Origin: Chthonomonadales bacterium
GTDB lineage: Bacteria > Armatimonadota > Chthonomonadetes > Chthonomonadales > Chthonomonadaceae
DNA: 30,478 nt
Direction: 5' to 3'
NCBI GenBank assembly: GCA_038217285.1
Contig: JBBQPO010000037.1
Span: 1 to 30,478 of the forward strand
Each line of letters starts with the position of its first letter. The first letter of the stretch is position 1. The notes below the pieces were generated by a model. The model was not told where the DNA came from. It was given only the letters and a program-made list of their open reading frames with translations, and made no database searches. A program made the translations under genes and the position numbers. Shown piece after piece: positions 1 through 6,804 of the stretch.

Positions 1-138
1 GTCCGTACAGCCATAATATATCACCCGCGTAGCTTCGCTCCAGACCGTTCAGATTGAAACGGAATCAGTGTTCATTTTGAACGCGATTCAGTGTTCATTT
101 TGAAACGGAATCAGTGTTCAAATTCGCCGGAATGTACA
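1..138 (-). mobile_element. End of an IS21-family insertion sequence (IS408/IS1162-like), probably the left end
   Basis: The minus strand begins TGTACATTCCGGCGAATTTGAACACTGATTCC. Three ~21-bp direct repeats follow at a 23-bp period (54-74, 77-97, 100-120). A 5'-TG terminus with repeated subterminal transposase sites is typical of IS21 ends. The RHS reading frame loses its character exactly at 138. Confidence 0.8.
54..120. repeat. Three tandem ~21-bp repeats (TTGAAACGGAATCAGTGTTCA), likely transposase-binding sites
   Basis: Copies 1 and 3 are identical. Copy 2 is TTGAACGCGATTCAGTGTTCA. Copies are separated by 2 bp. Confidence 0.9.
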
Positions 139-909
139 GTAGGCCAGCGAGATCGTGCGGCTGCTCGGATCGGTAATCGTGGTGACGTTGTGAGCGGTGT
201 TGTAGGCGAGGGCGACCTGGTTGCCGTTGTGGTCGGTGATCGTGTCGCCGTAGTAGGCGCTCGTATAGTGGTACTTGGTCTGGTCAGGCTTGGTGATTGT
301 ATACGTTCCGTCGGTGTTGGCGACGAGGGTGTCATGGATGCCGGTCGGAGCCGAATAGGAGCCATCGACGTTCTGGGTGAACTTGTACGCCAGGTCGTCT
401 CCCCAGTGTGCGGTCAGATCGGTGGTCGTGCTGCTCCCGCCTTCCGGGGCGATCCCGCCCGGGCTGCCGCCGCTGCCCGTGCTCGCGACGAGATAGAGGT
501 CGTAGGAGTGGGTCCATTTCTGGCCGAGTTCAGAGTTGCGGGAGGACTGACTGTTGTGCGTGAGGGTGAAGGCGACGGGCATGCCGCCGCGTGCGATCCA
601 GCCGACCAGCGGCACTTGGAAGGCCTTGTTGCCGTTACCGGTGTTGGTGCCGCCGACGCTGGCTTCCCAGGGGTAAGTCGAGCCCGAGGCGGCATCCACA
701 GCCAGGGCCATCGGAGCCGCAGGGCGTTGCCGACCGGAGATACGCTGCATCTCCGCTAGATTCAGGGATCGTACGCCCAATTTTCTTTCTTTGCCAGGAT
801 GCGCGAGGGCCTGGGCGGGCACGGCGAGCACGGCGCTCCAGGCGAAGAGCCCGACAACCGAGGCAGCGAGGCGTCGCTGCCAATGGGGACGCGAGACGTA
901 GGGTCTCAT
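118..909 (-). pseudogene. 5' fragment of a secreted RHS/YD-repeat protein (signal peptide, DUF6531-like domain, first YD repeats), disrupted by an IS
   Basis: Signal peptide ends ...AVPAQA. NTGNGN...FTLTHNSQ...LGQKWTHSY is DUF6531-like. YD-type repeats ITDHNGNQVALAY and ITDPSSRTISLAY follow. The last residues (CTFRRI*) are encoded by the IS end. An AAGGA RBS lies upstream. Confidence 0.85.
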
Positions 910-990
910 AAAGTGTCCTTACCTTCCTTGCCTGCACAGGGAGCAGGCGGGTCGAGAGGGCTATATTCGCTCTGGCGAACAGTAGCCCGG

Positions 991-1020
991 TTGACAGACC
1001 CGGAAGGAGGGCGTCATAAT
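991..1020 (+). promoter_or_regulatory. Sigma70-type promoter TTGACA-N18-CATAAT, antisense to the flanking genes
   Basis: Perfect -35 at 991-996 and a 5/6 -10 at 1015-1020, in an intergenic region. Confidence 0.65.
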
Positions 1021-1025
1021 AACAC

Positions 1026-1098
1026 CAGTCCTTCGGGGCTGTGTGAGCCGTCCGTTTCCTTCTCGGCCAAGAGAAATGGGGAAACGGGCGGTTTTTTT
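1026..1098 (+). ncRNA. Candidate ~72-nt small RNA: cUUCGg hairpin plus intrinsic terminator
   Basis: Starts ~6-7 nt after the -10 box. First hairpin is CAGTCC-TTCG-GGGCTG (1026-1041). A 13-bp stem (1047-1059/1080-1092) is followed by T7. G-U pairs favour the + strand. Confidence 0.6.
1047..1098 (+). terminator. Rho-independent terminator
   Basis: GCCGTCCGTTTCC pairs with GGAAACGGGCGGT, with an inner TTCTC/GAGAA stem, then TTTTTTT (1092-1098). Confidence 0.75.
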
Positions 1099-1200
1099 GC
1101 GTCTTCTGGAACGCAAAAAAGCGGTGACATTGACAACAATGCCGAAAGGCGGCCGCTACGATGCGGCGGTGAGAATGCGGTCGGGCTCTTCTTCACTCTC

Positions 1201-1995
1201 TTATCGACGGAGGAGGAGAAGGAAGCCGCCACATCGCTGCAAAAGCTGTTCCTGCGAGAGGGTTTCTTCGGTAGGCTTGTTGGGGTCGTGAATAGTCGCG
1301 GTGGCGGTGTCGCCTATGCCGGAAAGTGCGAGCAGGGCGACATAGTGGTTACGATTGACCCAGGCGATGGCTGGCAGAGCGGTGTCCGGGAGCGCCTGCC
1401 GGTTGACCTGGACCCCTTCGGCTTGCAGACCTACCTTCTGCGCCGCTTGTTGCAGACCAGCAAGGGTCGTGCCCTGGGCGGTCGTGCCTGCGGCTGTTCG
1501 AAGTTGTGGCAGGGTGGTCTTCACACCCAACCTCTGGCAGACGAGCAGGAGGGCGCGAGGGCCGCAGTCGCCGTCGGGGGCAGGAAGGGTGGCAGAAGGC
1601 GAAGAAACAGGCGCAACGGCAGGCGACAGTCCGGCGTCCTTGAGGCAGATGTCGCGCTGGGTGTTGCAGAAGGCGACGGCGTCGGGAGTAAGGCCGGGAG
1701 TACGAGCCAGTGTATGAAGGCGGTCGGCGGCTTTGCGGTAGTCGTGGCGCTTGCAGTCCTGTTGAGCCTGTTGATAGAGCGGAGAGGACCGCACCTGTGA
1801 GACGGCGGAAGAAAGAGTGGTGAGGGAGCGAGCGGGCACGGCGGAAATAGCGGTGGGAGACGACCGAGCGTGACAGCCGCTGAGGCCAAGGGCAAAGCCC
1901 AGGAAAAGCCCAATAGAACGCAAGGACGAACGGCGATCCGGGGCCTGCGATACAGACAATCCCGTCACGGTAAAGCGTGGTACAGCAGCAAACAT
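1201..1995 (-). CDS. Lipoprotein with a short TPR-like helical segment and a C-terminal peptidase C39-like domain
   Basis: Hydrophobic stretch and lipobox LSG-C. Catalytic Cys (DCGPRAL), His (NHYVAL) and Asp (IHDPN). GTTLAGLQQAAQKVGL is typical of C39 domains. GAGGAG RBS. Confidence 0.85.
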   Translation of the reverse strand: MFAAVPRFTVTGLSVSQAPDRRSSLRSIGLFLGFALGLSGCHARSSPTAISAVPARSLTTLSSAVSQVRSSPLYQQAQQDCKRHDYRKAADRLHTLARTPGLTPDAVAFCNTQRDICLKDAGLSPAVAPVSSPSATLPAPDGDCGPRALLLVCQRLGVKTTLPQLRTAAGTTAQGTTLAGLQQAAQKVGLQAEGVQVNRQALPDTALPAIAWVNRNHYVALLALSGIGDTATATIHDPNKPTEETLSQEQLLQRCGGFLLLLRR

Positions 1996-2173: not shown

Positions 2174-2203
2174 ATTCTAACACAAGGCGCTTATACCTGT
2201 CAA
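2174..2203 (-). promoter_or_regulatory. Sigma70-type promoter TTGACA-N18-TAGAAT (extended -10 TG) for the C39-RHS unit
   Basis: Read directly on the minus strand. An AT-rich UP-like region lies upstream. Confidence 0.7.
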
Positions 2204-4529: not shown

Positions 4530-5597
4530 TCAGCGCGGAACCTCGACGGACTGCAGGACCGTCTCGACGATACGGTCGTTGGTGTAGCCCTCGATCTCCG
4601 CCTCAGGGCGCAGGATCATGCGATGTCGGAGAACGGGGCGAGCCATCATCTTGATGTCGTCCGGAGTGACGAAGTCGCGACCGCGCATCGCGGCCAGCGC
4701 CTTCGTCGTATTCAGCAGCGTGATGGCCGCACGAGGACTGGCGCCCAGCAGCAGATTCCGGTTCTCACGGGTGGCTCGGGCGATCTGTACGATGTAACGC
4801 AGAACGGTCGGATCGACGCGTACGCGCTCGATGAGGCTGCGATAGAAGGGCATATCCGCCCCAGTAAGCACGGGTACGATCTCTGCTGTGTCCAGGTTTT
4901 GCGCTCGAAACCCGGACTGCACTCTGCCCAGCAGATTCTCTTCTTCGATCTGCGCGGGGTATCCCACGTTCACTTTCAGCATGAAGCGGTCGATCTGCGC
5001 TTCCGGCAGAGGATAGGTGCCTTCGTATTCGATCGGGTTTTGGGTCGCGCAGACGAGAAACGGCTCCGGCAACGCGTTCGGAATTCCGTCGATGGTGACG
5101 CGGCGCTCTTCCATCGCTTCCAGCAGCGCGGACTGGGTCTTGGGAGGGGTACGATTGATCTCATCCGCCAGTACCAAACCGGCGAAGATAGGCCCCTTTT
5201 TGAGGTTGAACTCCTGCGTTCGTGGGTCGAAGATGCTGGTGCCGAGAATGTCCGACGGCATCAGATCGGGGGTGAACTGAATGCGGGCGAACGAGACGTC
5301 GAAGATTCGGGCCAGGGTGCGCACCGAGAGCGTCTTGGCTGTGCCGGGGACGCCTTCCAGTAAAATATGCCCGCCTGCCAGAACCGCGACGATCATCATC
5401 TCGACCAGTTCGTCCTGCCCGACAATGGCCTTGTGCATTTCGGCCGTGATGCGCTCTGCCAGAACCTGCACCGAAAGCCCTCCGCGCATGGGAACGCCTG
5501 CTGTGGGCAGCGCTGCCGCTCCCGGCATCACTCCGCCATGAGAGACCTCCACGCCTCCTGATCCTCCGTCTAACGGCTCGCTACTGATGTCCGACAA
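4530..5597 (-). CDS. moxR: MoxR-family AAA+ ATPase
   Basis: Walker A GVPGTAKT, RIQFTPDLMPSD, Walker B LADEINR, ATQNPIEYEGTYPLPEAQ. Start moved to the TTG at 5597, which follows an AGAAGGAG RBS. Confidence 0.94.
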   Translation of the reverse strand: MSDISSEPLDGGSGGVEVSHGGVMPGAAALPTAGVPMRGGLSVQVLAERITAEMHKAIVGQDELVEMMIVAVLAGGHILLEGVPGTAKTLSVRTLARIFDVSFARIQFTPDLMPSDILGTSIFDPRTQEFNLKKGPIFAGLVLADEINRTPPKTQSALLEAMEERRVTIDGIPNALPEPFLVCATQNPIEYEGTYPLPEAQIDRFMLKVNVGYPAQIEEENLLGRVQSGFRAQNLDTAEIVPVLTGADMPFYRSLIERVRVDPTVLRYIVQIARATRENRNLLLGASPRAAITLLNTTKALAAMRGRDFVTPDDIKMMARPVLRHRMILRPEAEIEGYTNDRIVETVLQSVEVPR

Positions 5598-6804
5598 GAT
5601 TGAAACTCCTTCTGTAGTTATCCAGTTGCCGCGCCAAATGCAGCATCGCCGGCTCTGTAATACGTTGGCCTCTGTCGATCTCTTCACAGTCTGTCAGGAA
5701 CTGAAGGAACGGCCCTTCCTGGACGCCATAGACGCGTACCGTCTGCGCAACAAGTTGGGCCATTGGCGTATCGGGCGTCAGATCGAGTTGACGCCGGAGA
5801 TCACGTACGAACTGCCGGTAGAGGGTGACGATGGCGATGTCGCCCGCATTGGCGCGCCGAAAGAGGCGGGCCATCGAGCCTACATAGTCCGTGCTTGGCC
5901 GGTAAGTTGCGTTGTGGAGAGTCCGCATTGGGCCAAATCGCTGGTTTCCGACGTAGATCAGGAGCGCGCCGAGAGCGAACAGATGGAGGATGAGGAAGCG
6001 CAACGGTTTGGGCGCGCTTGCAAACACTCCCTCCTGCGTCTCGTCACCGGCGCGCTTCTCGAACCCGACCCCGTGATGATACTCATCGAACACAATGGTG
6101 CGGTGCCCGTTCTTCAAGGTTTCGGCAGCGATATTAACGAGCAGTATCGCATTGTCGGCCTGGGAGATCGTGCTGTTGCTGGCGGCCACCGTATTGGCGA
6201 TCACGATCACATGGCCCTGTCCCATCTTCTTCTCTGCGGCTAGCGCTCCGCCGTCATCTCGAAACAGCGTCTGATAGTGGGAGTTGTCGCCTGCCTTCAA
6301 TCGGACCGGACTTGCGACATGGATGGCCTCGACATTTTTTACAAAAGGCGAATCAGGCGCAAACGGCTTTAGATCCTTCCCTTTCGGATCCCCTTCCACG
6401 ATGGCGATGTCGCCTGCAATCAAGTCCTTGGGTTCAAGTTTCCTAGCGGGCAGGGTGACCAGGAACAGGACGGACCCACCGCCTTCAATCCACGACTTCA
6501 GAGCCGTCAGCTCTTCTGCGGTGACGGTGCGATCGTCCCGCAAGGGTTCGATAACGACGAGCAGTCCCATGGTCGCATTGAGAGCCGACCAGGGCGATTC
6601 CATACGGTCGGCAGCGAAACCCTCTTTTTGCAGCAGGAGATAGAGAGCCTTGGCGCCCGGCCCTTGCGCATTCAGAGTGCTAGGCGTATCGCGCGGGACG
6701 GTCTCTTGCGCCACCCGTTCGAAGAGAAGCAGCGCCGCAATGAATGACACGAACAGTGCGCCCAGTACGATCATTTCCCGGTTTTTCCGCTTGCCTCTAC
6801 GCAT
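5581..6804 (-). CDS. DUF4350-type membrane-anchored GATase-like domain protein
   Basis: N-terminal TM. PSTLNAQGPGAKALY, LKSWIEGGG, IVFDEYHHG, then a second TM with QRFG. Usual partner of moxR. Confidence 0.85.
   Translation of the reverse strand: MRRGKRKNREMIVLGALFVSFIAALLLFERVAQETVPRDTPSTLNAQGPGAKALYLLLQKEGFAADRMESPWSALNATMGLLVVIEPLRDDRTVTAEELTALKSWIEGGGSVLFLVTLPARKLEPKDLIAGDIAIVEGDPKGKDLKPFAPDSPFVKNVEAIHVASPVRLKAGDNSHYQTLFRDDGGALAAEKKMGQGHVIVIANTVAASNSTISQADNAILLVNIAAETLKNGHRTIVFDEYHHGVGFEKRAGDETQEGVFASAPKPLRFLILHLFALGALLIYVGNQRFGPMRTLHNATYRPSTDYVGSMARLFRRANAGDIAIVTLYRQFVRDLRRQLDLTPDTPMAQLVAQTVRVYGVQEGPFLQFLTDCEEIDRGQRITEPAMLHLARQLDNYRRSFNLVGHQ

What the first reader, a model, noticed from the sequence alone, without database searches (positions are those of the whole stretch)
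118..1995. Stand-alone lipoprotein C39 peptidase paired with a Sec-exported RHS protein carrying a double-glycine-like leader
Seen: after its signal peptide, the RHS protein has LNLAEMQRISG-R (nt 730-765), just before the DUF6531 region. The upstream gene encodes a lipoprotein with an intact C39 Cys-His-Asp set and no ABC transporter domain. Known: C39 domains of PCAT exporters (LagD/ComA/CvaB type) cleave bacteriocin leaders of the form LSxxELxxIxG(G/A/S) in the cytoplasm. Inference: bacteriocin-leader chemistry has been moved outside the cytoplasm, where a dedicated membrane-tethered protease matures or releases a polymorphic RHS toxin. No T6SS, T7SS or PCAT genes are present in the window. 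Caveat: the motif ends in G-R, not G-G, and the usual oxyanion Gln before DCG is not evident.
Basis: partly seen in the sequence, partly recalled or inferred. Interest (0 to 1): 0.85.

Follow-up and report, generated by a model that had tools for sequence, protein, structure and literature searches.

The report
Exported C39 protease paired with RHS toxin
A lipid-anchored, bacteriocin-type cysteine protease sits next to a large exported RHS toxin gene whose signal peptide is followed by a bacteriocin-style "double-glycine" leader, and this pairing recurs across one bacterial phylum, which suggests a new way of maturing such toxins outside the cytoplasm.

Summary
Both genes lie on the minus strand. 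A 264-aa lipoprotein (1201-1995) has a C39 domain with Cys144/His217/Asp237 and no oxyanion Gln. Downstream is an RHS N-terminus (139-909) with a Sec-type signal peptide and then LNLAEMQRISG-R at nt 730-765.

Only 257 native residues remain here.

In 16 of 16 related C39 loci with downstream sequence, the next gene is an RHS carrying R-x-L-[ST]-x-x-E-M-x-x-[IM]-x-G-x after its signal peptide. That is the double-glycine leader spacing (-12, -8, -7, -4, -2). Ten RHS relatives without the leader have no C39 gene upstream. A second, divergent C39/RHS pair class shows the same leader. A co-fold places the leader in the C39 groove and active site (0.64; best control 0.02).

The genome shows no PCAT-sized C39 protein and no T6SS sheath gene, but it has Lgt, LspA and Omp85.

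Best reading (about 0.65): an extracytoplasmic pre-pro-RHS is processed by a dedicated lipoprotein C39. Cleavage is untested. FapD is a precedent for a periplasmic C39. I rate this a new variant of a known kind. All named sources are Armatimonadota, including cultured Armatimonas rosea.

The parts
1201..1995 (-). Gene for the stand-alone C39 lipoprotein (264 aa plus stop)
   Evidence: ORF. PF03412 scores E=2.6e-20. 99 homologs of 145-355 aa were found, nearly all listed with PF03412.
1873..1995 (-). Lipoprotein signal peptide, residues 1-41, ending in the lipobox L-S-G-C
   Evidence: Sequence. G40 and C41 are nearly invariant in the 25-sequence alignment. Lgt and LspA genes are present in the genome.
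1636..1809 (-). Conserved N-terminal four-helix module, residues 63-120
   Evidence: The AlphaFold2 model has helices 63-69, 72-82, 86-97 and 104-120, with block-mean pLDDT of 84-94 over residues 71-120. A89, L96, Q113 and C117 are invariant. A weak BamD/TPR-like hit was seen.
1204..1581 (-). C39 peptidase domain, residues 139-264, with Cys144, His217 and Asp237
   Evidence: The closest PDB sequence is the PCAT1 peptidase domain, E=9e-16. Foldseek matches PCAT1, LahT and ComA peptidase domains at rmsd about 2 A and target TM 0.69-0.77.
910..1200 (-). Intergenic region between the C39 gene and the RHS gene
   Evidence: No Rfam match at E<=1. One weak terminator-like site at 1143-1126, which is no more than shuffled sequence gives.
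802..909 (-). RHS signal peptide, residues 1-36: charged n-region, h-region LAASVVGLFAWSAVLAV, c-region PAQALA
   Evidence: Sequence. The F-x-W-S and A-x-A features are conserved in relatives. Cleavage by signal peptidase I is inferred.
730..801 (-). Double-glycine-type propeptide, residues 37-60 (HPGKERKLGVRSLNLAEMQRISGR); the putative cleavage site is after R60
   Evidence: R47, L49 and G59 are invariant and E53 is nearly invariant in alignments A2 and A4; M54 is nearly invariant in A2. Position table. Residues 43-64 contact the C39 in the co-fold.
139..729 (-). Variable linker and start of the RHS core, residues 61-257, with DUF6531 and the first RHS repeat
   Evidence: Pfam hits. 54 longer RHS relatives. 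The linker length varies from 0 to about 40 residues.
1..138 (.). Terminus of a multicopy mobile element ending ...GGAATGTACA, with three ~23-nt subterminal direct repeats (about 62-130); it truncates the RHS gene
   Evidence: Identical at 10 contig ends with unrelated flanks. Contig depth in run X1 is 154-279 over 1-140 against 5-9 beside it.
2174..2203 (-). Sigma-70-like promoter match upstream of the C39 gene (TTGACA, 18-nt spacer, TAGAAT)
   Evidence: 11 of 12 positions match. Two such sites were found in the region against 0.2 expected. This is a consensus match only.

Best explanation
This is a two-gene module for extracytoplasmic maturation of an RHS polymorphic toxin.

Proposed steps:
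1. Both proteins leave the cytoplasm through Sec.
2. The C39 protein is lipidated at Cys41 and stays tethered to a membrane in the periplasm.
3. The RHS precursor is a pre-pro-protein. A signal peptide, probably removed at AQALA|HP, is followed by a propeptide of about 24 residues with the architecture of a double-glycine bacteriocin leader: hydrophobic -15, L-12, S/T-11, E-8, M-7, I/M-4, G-2.
4. The amphipathic helix of the propeptide docks in the hydrophobic groove of the C39 domain (residues 174-182). Its N-terminal part pairs with the strand at 193-198.
5. The G59-R60 turn enters the Cys144/His217 site, where the bond after residue 60 is cut. Mature RHS is released, usually starting with Gln.

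Shown here:
- The domains and catalytic residues.
- The conserved leader.
- The two-way gene linkage.
- The absence of a PCAT.
- A supportive co-fold.

Inferred:
- Export and lipidation.
- Signal peptidase cleavage.
- C39 cleavage and its exact site.
- What cleavage achieves. Candidates are release from a tether, licensing for passage across the outer membrane, or activation.

In this genome the cargo gene is disrupted by a mobile element, so the module is probably no longer functional here.
For: Domains:
- PF03412 scores E=2.6e-20.
- Cys144, His217 and Asp237 are invariant in 25 of 25 sequences, and the lipobox is nearly invariant.
- The C39 domain model has pLDDT >90 and matches PCAT1, LahT and ComA peptidase domains.

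Linkage starting from the C39 gene:
- The genome-contig scan gave 19 loci, of which 3 end before any downstream gene.
- The other 16 of 16 have an RHS as the next same-strand gene, with the leader.
- Six further loci from other families of the phylum (L059-L063, L074) all have an RHS downstream. Five carry the leader, allowing Q at -8 in one. One is degenerate.
- 10 of 10 downstream genes tested are RHS, with PF05593 E<=1.6e-38.

Linkage starting from the RHS gene:
- 8 of 8 leader-containing matches in relatives have the C39 gene directly upstream.
- 10 leader-less RHS loci have no C39 (hmmsearch E<=1) and no motif in any frame.

Second class:
- A divergent class of 374-416 aa has a signal or TM segment, a TPR-like part and a C39 domain, about 22-23% identical to the window protein, with Cys/His/Asp kept.
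- It precedes a different RHS clade that also carries the leader, in 3 of 3 loci.

Leader statistics over 58 unique sequences:
- -15 is V/I/L/M in 44.
- -11 is S/T in 51.
- -8 is E in 54.
- -7 is M in 56.
- -4 is I/M/L in 57.
- +1 is Q in 30.
- This matches the PCAT1/LahT consensus L(-12)xxxE(-8)L(-7)xxxxG(-2)G(-1) (PMC6959990, passages read).

Co-fold:
- Score 0.64, with runs of 0.64, 0.70 and 0.54. The best of 3 controls was 0.02.
- That mark was reached by 58 of 80 solved complexes and 2 of 110 mismatched pairs.
- The runs agree in at least 55% of contacts. Partner pLDDT was 51-57.
- The interface covers C39 residues 140-145, 174-182, 193-198, 216-218 and 238-239, and leader residues 43-64.
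- L178, which aligns to PCAT1 A55 of the 'hydrophobic knot', touches M54 and I57.

Genome context:
- Only 4 C39 domains were found, none in a PCAT-sized ORF.
- No TssC was found in a 95%-complete genome.
- LspA, Lgt and Omp85 are present.
Against: - No biochemical evidence exists, and cleavage has not been shown anywhere for this family.
- The oxyanion Gln conserved in PCAT peptidase domains is absent in all 25 homologs.
- Position -1 is A in 25, R in 11, G in 8 and S in 7 of 58 sequences, with T, Q and others besides. The window has R. PCAT1's cleft is described as too narrow for anything but Gly-Gly (PMC6959990), so the S1 site must differ or cleavage may not occur.
- The strongly conserved h-region (F-x-W-S) is unusual for a generic signal peptide and is unexplained.
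- The co-fold may pass from memory of solved PCAT1-substrate and LahT-leader complexes.
- The loci are kin, so the counts overstate independence.
- The A2 rows were chosen from proteins with the motif or near variants.
- In this window the RHS is truncated, and several relatives' genes look frameshifted (L029, L034, L036, L037, L043).
- No RNA evidence is available.
Confidence: 0.65

Rival explanations
1. The C39 lipoprotein binds the leader without cutting it. It acts as a receptor, tether or chaperone, like the C39-like domain of HlyB, and holds the RHS at the membrane or hands it to an export step.
For: The oxyanion Gln is absent. Position -1 includes Arg, Thr and Gln (and Lys and Met in listed sequences), which a canonical narrow double-glycine cleft should not accept (PMC6959990). 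The co-fold supports binding only. Foldseek also matches the HlyB C39-like domain 3zua at rank 2.
Against: Cys144, His217 and Asp237 are invariant in 25 of 25 sequences, and are kept in the divergent second class. From recall, the non-catalytic C39-like domains have lost the Cys. G at -2 is invariant (in sequences that the pattern required to carry it; A4 shows the same) and a variable linker follows it, as expected for a cleavage site.
Confidence: 0.15
2. The conserved segment is a structural or sorting element of this RHS clade and is not a C39 substrate. The C39 protein acts elsewhere, for example by cutting another site of the RHS to release the toxin, by acting on another envelope protein, or as a toxin or immunity accessory.
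For: C39-like domains do occur as toxin domains of polymorphic toxins (Tox-PL-C39; PMC3482391, passages read). Other exported C39 classes in this phylum are not RHS-linked (L065-L069, L071). FapD's substrate lacks a canonical leader (PMC5557850).
Against: The segment matches the double-glycine leader at seven positions with exact spacing. It is present when the C39 gene is present and absent when it is absent. A second divergent pair class shows it too. The co-fold puts G59-R60 at the catalytic Cys and His.
Confidence: 0.1
3. The hydrophobic N-terminus is not a Sec signal. The whole N-terminus of about 60 residues is a long leader processed in the cytoplasm by a PCAT-type exporter encoded elsewhere.
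For: Double-glycine leaders are classically cytoplasmic substrates of PCATs (PMC6959990).
Against: Only 4 C39 domains were found in a 95%-complete genome, none in an ABC-transporter-sized ORF. The adjacent C39 has a nearly invariant lipobox and so lies outside the cytoplasm. The RHS N-terminus has n-, h- and c-regions with A-x-A.
Confidence: 0.03

Closest known systems
Peptidase domains of PCAT exporters (PCAT1 of Clostridium thermocellum, ComA, LahT) with double-glycine leaders
   Same: Same fold and same Cys-His-Asp triad. The substrate motif has the same spacing at -12, -8, -7, -4 and -2 (PMC6959990). The predicted docking mode is the same, including the residue equivalent to PCAT1 A55.
   Different: - The protein is a stand-alone lipoprotein with an extra N-terminal helical module, not fused to an ABC transporter.
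- It is predicted to act outside the cytoplasm.
- The leader follows a Sec signal peptide instead of starting the protein.
- The cargo is an RHS protein of about 1000-1400 aa, not a peptide.
- Met is preferred at -7, and R-14 is invariant among the sequences collected (the pattern used required it; A2 and A4 show the same).
- Position -1 is not restricted to G/A/S.
- The oxyanion Gln is missing.
FapD, the periplasmic C39 peptidase of the Pseudomonas Fap amyloid system (PMC5557850, passages read)
   Same: A Sec-exported, stand-alone C39 peptidase that works in the periplasm. Its active-site Cys is needed for secretion of a Sec-exported partner through an outer-membrane step.
   Different: FapD's substrate is unknown, and Fap proteins lack a canonical leader. 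Here the candidate substrate carries a full leader consensus. The cargo here is an RHS toxin, not an amyloid subunit. The protein here is a lipoprotein. Sequence relationship to FapD was not tested here.
C39-like domain of HlyB-type type I exporters
   Same: A C39 fold that binds its substrate (Foldseek rank 2, 3zua).
   Different: From recall, the HlyB domain lacks the catalytic Cys and is cytoplasmic. The window protein keeps Cys, His and Asp.
Tox-PL-C39 domains of polymorphic toxins (Zhang et al. 2012, PMC3482391, passages read)
   Same: A C39-type domain associated with polymorphic toxin systems.
   Different: There the C39 domain is the C-terminal toxin itself. Here it is a separate upstream lipoprotein, and the RHS carries a leader.
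PA2778/PA2779-type envelope cysteine peptidase pairs (NCBIfam NF033920/NF033919; a lead from earlier scan notes)
   Same: A lipid-anchored C39-like peptidase next to a small envelope partner.
   Different: The window protein gave no NF033920 hit at E<=1. Its partner is an RHS with a canonical leader.

Membership tests
Peptidase C39 (Pfam PF03412) | Profile score above the curated cut-off | tested here: met
   73 bits against a cut-off of 22, E=2.6e-20.
Peptidase C39 (Pfam PF03412) | Catalytic Cys, His and Asp | tested here: met
   C144, H217 and D237 are invariant in 25 of 25 sequences and align to the PCAT1 triad.
Peptidase C39 (Pfam PF03412) | Oxyanion-hole Gln six residues before the Cys | tested here: not met
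   The position aligned to PCAT1 Q15 is variable, and is Pro in the window protein.
PCAT / bacteriocin ABC exporter | C39 domain fused to transmembrane and ATPase domains | tested here: not met
   The ORF is 264 aa. Matches to TIGR03796, TIGR01193 and TIGR01846 are far below their cut-offs and cover the peptidase part only.
Double-glycine (GG) leader peptide | Consensus L(-12), E(-8), L/M(-7), hydrophobic -4, G(-2) | tested here: met
   The window has L49, E53, M54, I57 and G59. The position table over 58 sequences is. The consensus is taken from PMC6959990.
Double-glycine (GG) leader peptide | G, A or S at -1 | tested here: not met
   The window has R60. Across relatives, G/A/S is found in 40 of 58 and R in 11 of 58.
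Double-glycine (GG) leader peptide | Leader at the extreme N-terminus of a cytoplasmic precursor | tested here: not met
   The leader follows a signal peptide of about 36 residues.
Double-glycine (GG) leader peptide | Cleaved by a C39 peptidase after -1 | not testable with these tools
   There is only a supportive co-fold.
RHS / YD-repeat polymorphic toxin | RHS repeats forming a shell, with a DUF6531 N-terminal region | tested here: met
   The window fragment has DUF6531 and one repeat. Full-length neighbours in relatives have 6-15 repeat matches.
RHS / YD-repeat polymorphic toxin | Core-end motif and variable C-terminal toxin | tested here: inconclusive
   This part is missing from the window copy, which is cut at residue 257. 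It is present in relatives: the consensus includes ...RYYD...GRF...DP.G and the C-terminal Pfam domains vary.
Bacterial lipoprotein | Lipobox [LVI][ASTVI][GAS]C after an n- and h-region, with the maturation enzymes present | tested here: met
   LSGC at residues 38-41. G40 and C41 are nearly invariant. Lgt and LspA are found in the genome. Lipidation itself was not tested.
PA2778-family cysteine peptidase (NF033920) | Match to the NCBIfam model | tested here: not met
   No hit at E<=1 in the NCBIfam scan.

The most novel reading that the evidence does not exclude
The double-glycine-type propeptide and its lipoprotein C39 are the recognition and licensing step of a so far unknown two-step export route for RHS polymorphic toxins. 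The route would run from Sec to a periplasmic C39 checkpoint to an unidentified outer-membrane passage. It would operate in a diderm phylum where the window genome shows no T6SS sheath gene, by analogy with FapD and FapF in amyloid secretion. If so, bacteriocin leader recognition was co-opted as a periplasmic sorting signal for giant toxins.
Probability: 0.2. Interest if true: 0.85.

Novelty: new variant of a known kind. Interest (0 to 1): 0.72.

Why it matters
Double-glycine leaders and C39 peptidases are textbook parts of cytoplasmic, ABC-transporter-coupled export of small peptides. Here the same recognition code sits behind a Sec signal peptide on proteins of 1000-1400 residues. It is paired with a lipid-anchored stand-alone C39.

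Three things follow:
- It gives periplasmic C39 peptidases a clear candidate substrate with a canonical motif. FapD still lacks one.
- It points to a T6SS-independent way of handling RHS toxins in a little-studied diderm phylum.
- It offers a simple test: a protease of about 220 residues, a peptide of about 25 residues, and a cultured carrier, Armatimonas rosea.

I found no paper linking RHS, C39 processing and a double-glycine leader in seven full-text searches.

Tried and rejected
- Rfam scan of nt 1-2300 at E<=1 gave no match. The long intergenic region is not a known RNA element.
- Terminator scan gave one weak site, no more than shuffles give. Co-transcription is left open.
- The rest of the window's RHS was not found in the assembly with P0101 and P0103 as queries. 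Only paralogs at about 23-29% identity appeared.
- Co-variation between leader position -1 and the C39 residues flanking the catalytic Cys and the His-to-Asp stretch: nothing obvious by eye in about 20 pairs. I did not pursue it.
- Sequencing runs: no RNA holder is listed.
- Laid contigs of three DNA runs. No contig bridges the element/RHS junction with 31 or more letters on both sides; the best has 26 on the element side. No uninterrupted RHS form was seen. These contigs only show high depth on the element end.
- Earlier scan notes by place and by sequence gave nothing.
- I first took the fused 1992-aa protein on contig C13 for a cis version of the same system. It has no leader-like motif with the right spacing, so I set it aside as a different architecture.
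- Exported C39 proteins of 463-515 aa elsewhere in the phylum (plus one of 236 aa, L065) have no RHS neighbour, so I did not count them.
- One search's loose pattern picked up one false positive (P0148, an N-terminally truncated ORF). I dropped it, leaving 58 of 59.
- Taxonomic spread beyond Armatimonadota could not be settled. The representative library has no names, and only 2 of the 10 clusters looked up carried any name, one of which named an organism.
Full report
**What is in the window**

The window is a whole contig of a 6.2-Mb, 459-contig genome that is 95% complete. Both genes of the finding lie on the minus strand.

The upstream gene, 1201-1995, encodes 264 residues:
- A lipoprotein signal peptide ends in L-S-G-C, with Cys41.
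- A four-helix module spans residues 63-120.
- A flexible linker follows.
- A C39 domain follows (PF03412, E=2.6e-20). The AlphaFold2 model has pLDDT >90 for this domain.
- I read the Cys144, His217 and Asp237 codons directly in the sequence.

The downstream ORF, 118-909, encodes 263 residues:
- It has a signal-peptide-like N-terminus: a charged n-region, a 17-residue h-region, and PAQALA|HP.
- The segment HPGKERKLGVRSLNLAEMQRISGR follows. LNLAEMQRISGR is exactly nt 765-730.
- A short linker follows.
- The RHS core then begins (DUF6531 and one RHS repeat).

- Nt 1-138 are the terminus of a multicopy mobile element. It ends ...GGAATGTACA and has three ~23-nt subterminal repeats.
- The same 130-138 bases close 10 contig ends of this genome, each with an unrelated flank.
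- In contigs of the best-holding public run, depth is 154-279 on this end against 5-9 on the gene beside it.
- The RHS gene is thus cut after residue 257. The last six codons and the stop are element sequence.
- The remainder was not found in the assembly.
- A second copy of the C39 gene, on contig C332, is also broken.
- In this genome the module is probably decaying. Its logic has to be read from relatives.

**The C39 family**

- A search of 5.8 billion proteins gave 99 homologs of 145-355 aa, nearly all listed with PF03412. The few named ones come from Chthonomonadales MAGs and are annotated as bacteriocin-processing peptidase or ABC protein.
- In 25 aligned members, C144, H217 and D237 are invariant and the lipobox G-C is nearly invariant. 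No Gln is conserved before the Cys.
- The closest solved sequences and folds are the peptidase domains of PCAT1, LahT and ComA.

**Linkage to RHS and conservation of the leader**

Starting from the C39 gene:
- A scan of 185,579 species genomes found 19 loci in Chthonomonadaceae, Capsulimonadaceae and Armatimonas.
- Three loci end before any downstream gene.
- In the other 16 of 16, the next same-strand gene is an RHS with a signal peptide followed by the motif.
- Fourteen fit L-x3-E-M-x2-[IVML]-x-G. L030 has K at -4 and L042 has R at -7.
- A sample of 251 genomes of the phylum gave 23 with a C39 match at E<=1e-20. Fourteen of these (counting the window genome) have small ORFs of the lipoprotein type.
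- Six further loci from other families all have an RHS downstream. Five carry the leader and one is degenerate.
- Ten of ten downstream genes tested are RHS proteins.

Starting from the RHS gene:
- Of 54 longer relatives of the window fragment, 37 have the motif, 5 have near variants and 12 have none. Those 12 are mostly the most distant hits.
- In 40 relatives' genomes, all 8 matches that include the leader have the C39 gene directly upstream.
- Ten RHS loci whose similarity starts only after the leader have a Sec- or Tat-like signal running straight into the core.
- Those ten have no motif in any frame and no C39 within the roughly 3 kb fetched.
- I did not fetch five short or internal matches.

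Further support:
- A second pair class exists. Its C39 proteins are 374-416 aa and about 22-23% identical to the window protein, with the triad kept. They sit in front of a different RHS clade that again carries the leader (MNDAELARLRGS, LTTAEMASLRGR, LNPAEMRKAVGR).
- A profile search of 1.84 billion representatives found 420 N-terminal relatives. Of the 139 newly listed ones, 50 carry the leader.
- The only organism name recovered was Armatimonas rosea.
- The loci are related by descent, so these counts are not independent trials.

**How good is the match to a double-glycine leader?**

Over 58 unique sequences:

| Position | Residue(s) | Count of 58 |
|---|---|---|
| -15 | V/I/L/M | 44 |
| -11 | S/T | 51 |
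| -8 | E | 54 |
| -7 | M | 56 |
| -4 | I/M/L | 57 |
| -1 | A / R / G / S | 25 / 11 / 8 / 7 |
| +1 | Q | 30 |

- R-14, L-12 and G-2 were required by the pattern used to collect these sequences. They are also invariant columns in alignments A2 and A4.
- The linker after the motif varies from 0 to about 40 residues, as expected downstream of a processing site.
- The PCAT1 structural paper gives the consensus L(-12)xxxE(-8)L(-7)xxxxG(-2)G(-1). In that structure a helix at -10 to -4 docks in a hydrophobic groove (PMC6959990, passages read).
- The strict motif is rare by chance: 48 hits in 5.68 million residues of six-frame ORFs of this genome.

**Co-fold**

- I folded C39 residues 60-264 with RHS residues 37-82, each with its alignment.
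- The score was 0.64 (runs of 0.64, 0.70 and 0.54) against a best control of 0.02.
- That mark was reached by 58 of 80 solved complexes and 2 of 110 mismatched pairs.
- The runs agree in at least 55% of contacts. Partner pLDDT was 51-57.
- The interface covers the catalytic Cys and His regions, the groove at 174-182 and the strand at 193-198, against leader residues 43-64.
- L178, the equivalent of PCAT1 A55, touches M54 and I57.
- Leader complexes of PCAT1 and LahT are already solved, so this pass may reflect likeness rather than independent evidence.

**Genome context**

- The other 19 window ORFs scanned are housekeeping genes.
- The genome has only four C39 domains, none in an ABC-exporter-sized ORF.
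- No TssC was found.
- It has LspA, Lgt and Omp85. This is consistent with a diderm cell that makes lipoproteins.

**Interpretation**

- The best-supported reading is a pre-pro-RHS that is exported by Sec and processed, or at least captured, by a dedicated lipoprotein C39 outside the cytoplasm.
- The main doubts are the missing Gln, the permissive -1 position, the unexplained conservation of the signal peptide h-region, and the complete lack of experiment.
- Binding without cleavage is the chief rival.

**Comparison with the literature**

- Periplasmic C39 action has a precedent in FapD, whose substrate lacks a canonical leader (PMC5557850, passages read).
- The polymorphic-toxin survey of Zhang et al. 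lists C39 only as a toxin domain (PMC3482391, passages read).
- Seven full-text searches found no paper joining RHS, C39 processing and a double-glycine leader.
- Earlier notes of this scan describe other lipoprotein C39-like pairs in other genomes. The window protein does not match that family's model.
- I rate this as a new variant of a known kind. It is well supported as a conserved gene pair and is readily testable.

Noticed in passing
window 1-138; also contig ends of C344, C260, C243, C203, C97, C80, C26, C204 and C14 of the same genome: A multicopy mobile element terminus ending ...TGTACA, with three ~23-nt subterminal direct repeats. A related element with 82-94% similar repeats ends contigs C356, C315, C287, C88, C70 and C20. 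The element body is not assembled, so its family was not identified.
   Followed up: partly
G000 contig C332, about 5347-5631 (+): A second copy of the C39 lipoprotein gene, 83-87% identical over residues 35-117 by two searches. It breaks off after residue ~117 into unrelated sequence.
   Followed up: partly
G000 contig C13 1022-6997 (-) and contig C169 224-1474 (-): A 1992-aa protein fuses a signal peptide, a long helical region, a C39-like domain (LCGVEAL...HDHF) and an RHS shell. C169 encodes a 417-aa look-alike of its N-terminal part at a contig start. Neither has a leader motif with canonical spacing.
   Followed up: partly
L054 3997-6200, L055 3-2221, L056 2-2294 (relatives G012, G011, G001): A second class of pair. 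A 374-416-aa protein with a signal or TM segment, a TPR-like part and a C39 domain sits directly upstream of a different RHS clade (core ...LCNGNLFKSF...). That RHS clade also carries a double-glycine-type leader.
   Followed up: yes
L048, L049, L050, L052 (relatives G007, G016, G015, G036): A leader-less RHS clade has N-termini that look like twin-arginine signals (for example SRRDFLKAAA and TRRQFLRDAAA). This would imply Tat export of RHS proteins.
   Followed up: no
L066-L069, L071 (other families of the phylum): Another class of exported C39 proteins of 463-515 aa. The C39 domain comes right after the signal peptide, followed by a long C-terminal extension. Several of these loci have an ORF of about 290-300 aa (a 284-aa and a 268-aa partial ORF in two) just upstream, and none has an RHS neighbour.
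   Followed up: no
G000 contig C58 19266-24643 (-): A cluster of RHS pieces. One RHS is cut at its 5' end by another repeat element, followed by a 247-aa ORF and an orphan RHS C-terminal module. An N-terminal RHS fragment with the leader LSSAEMKRAQGR, but without a signal peptide, follows.
   Followed up: partly
G000 contig C10 24728-25891 (+): A 388-aa membrane protein with a C39 domain followed by an esterase-like C-terminal part. It is not an ABC exporter.
   Followed up: no
RHS signal peptides of the family (window nt 802-909; alignments A2 and A4): The h-region keeps an F-x-W-[ST] motif and a Pro before A-x-A across proteins that are only 32-66% identical over the aligned N-terminal region. 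This is more conserved than a generic signal peptide needs, and it is unexplained.
   Followed up: no
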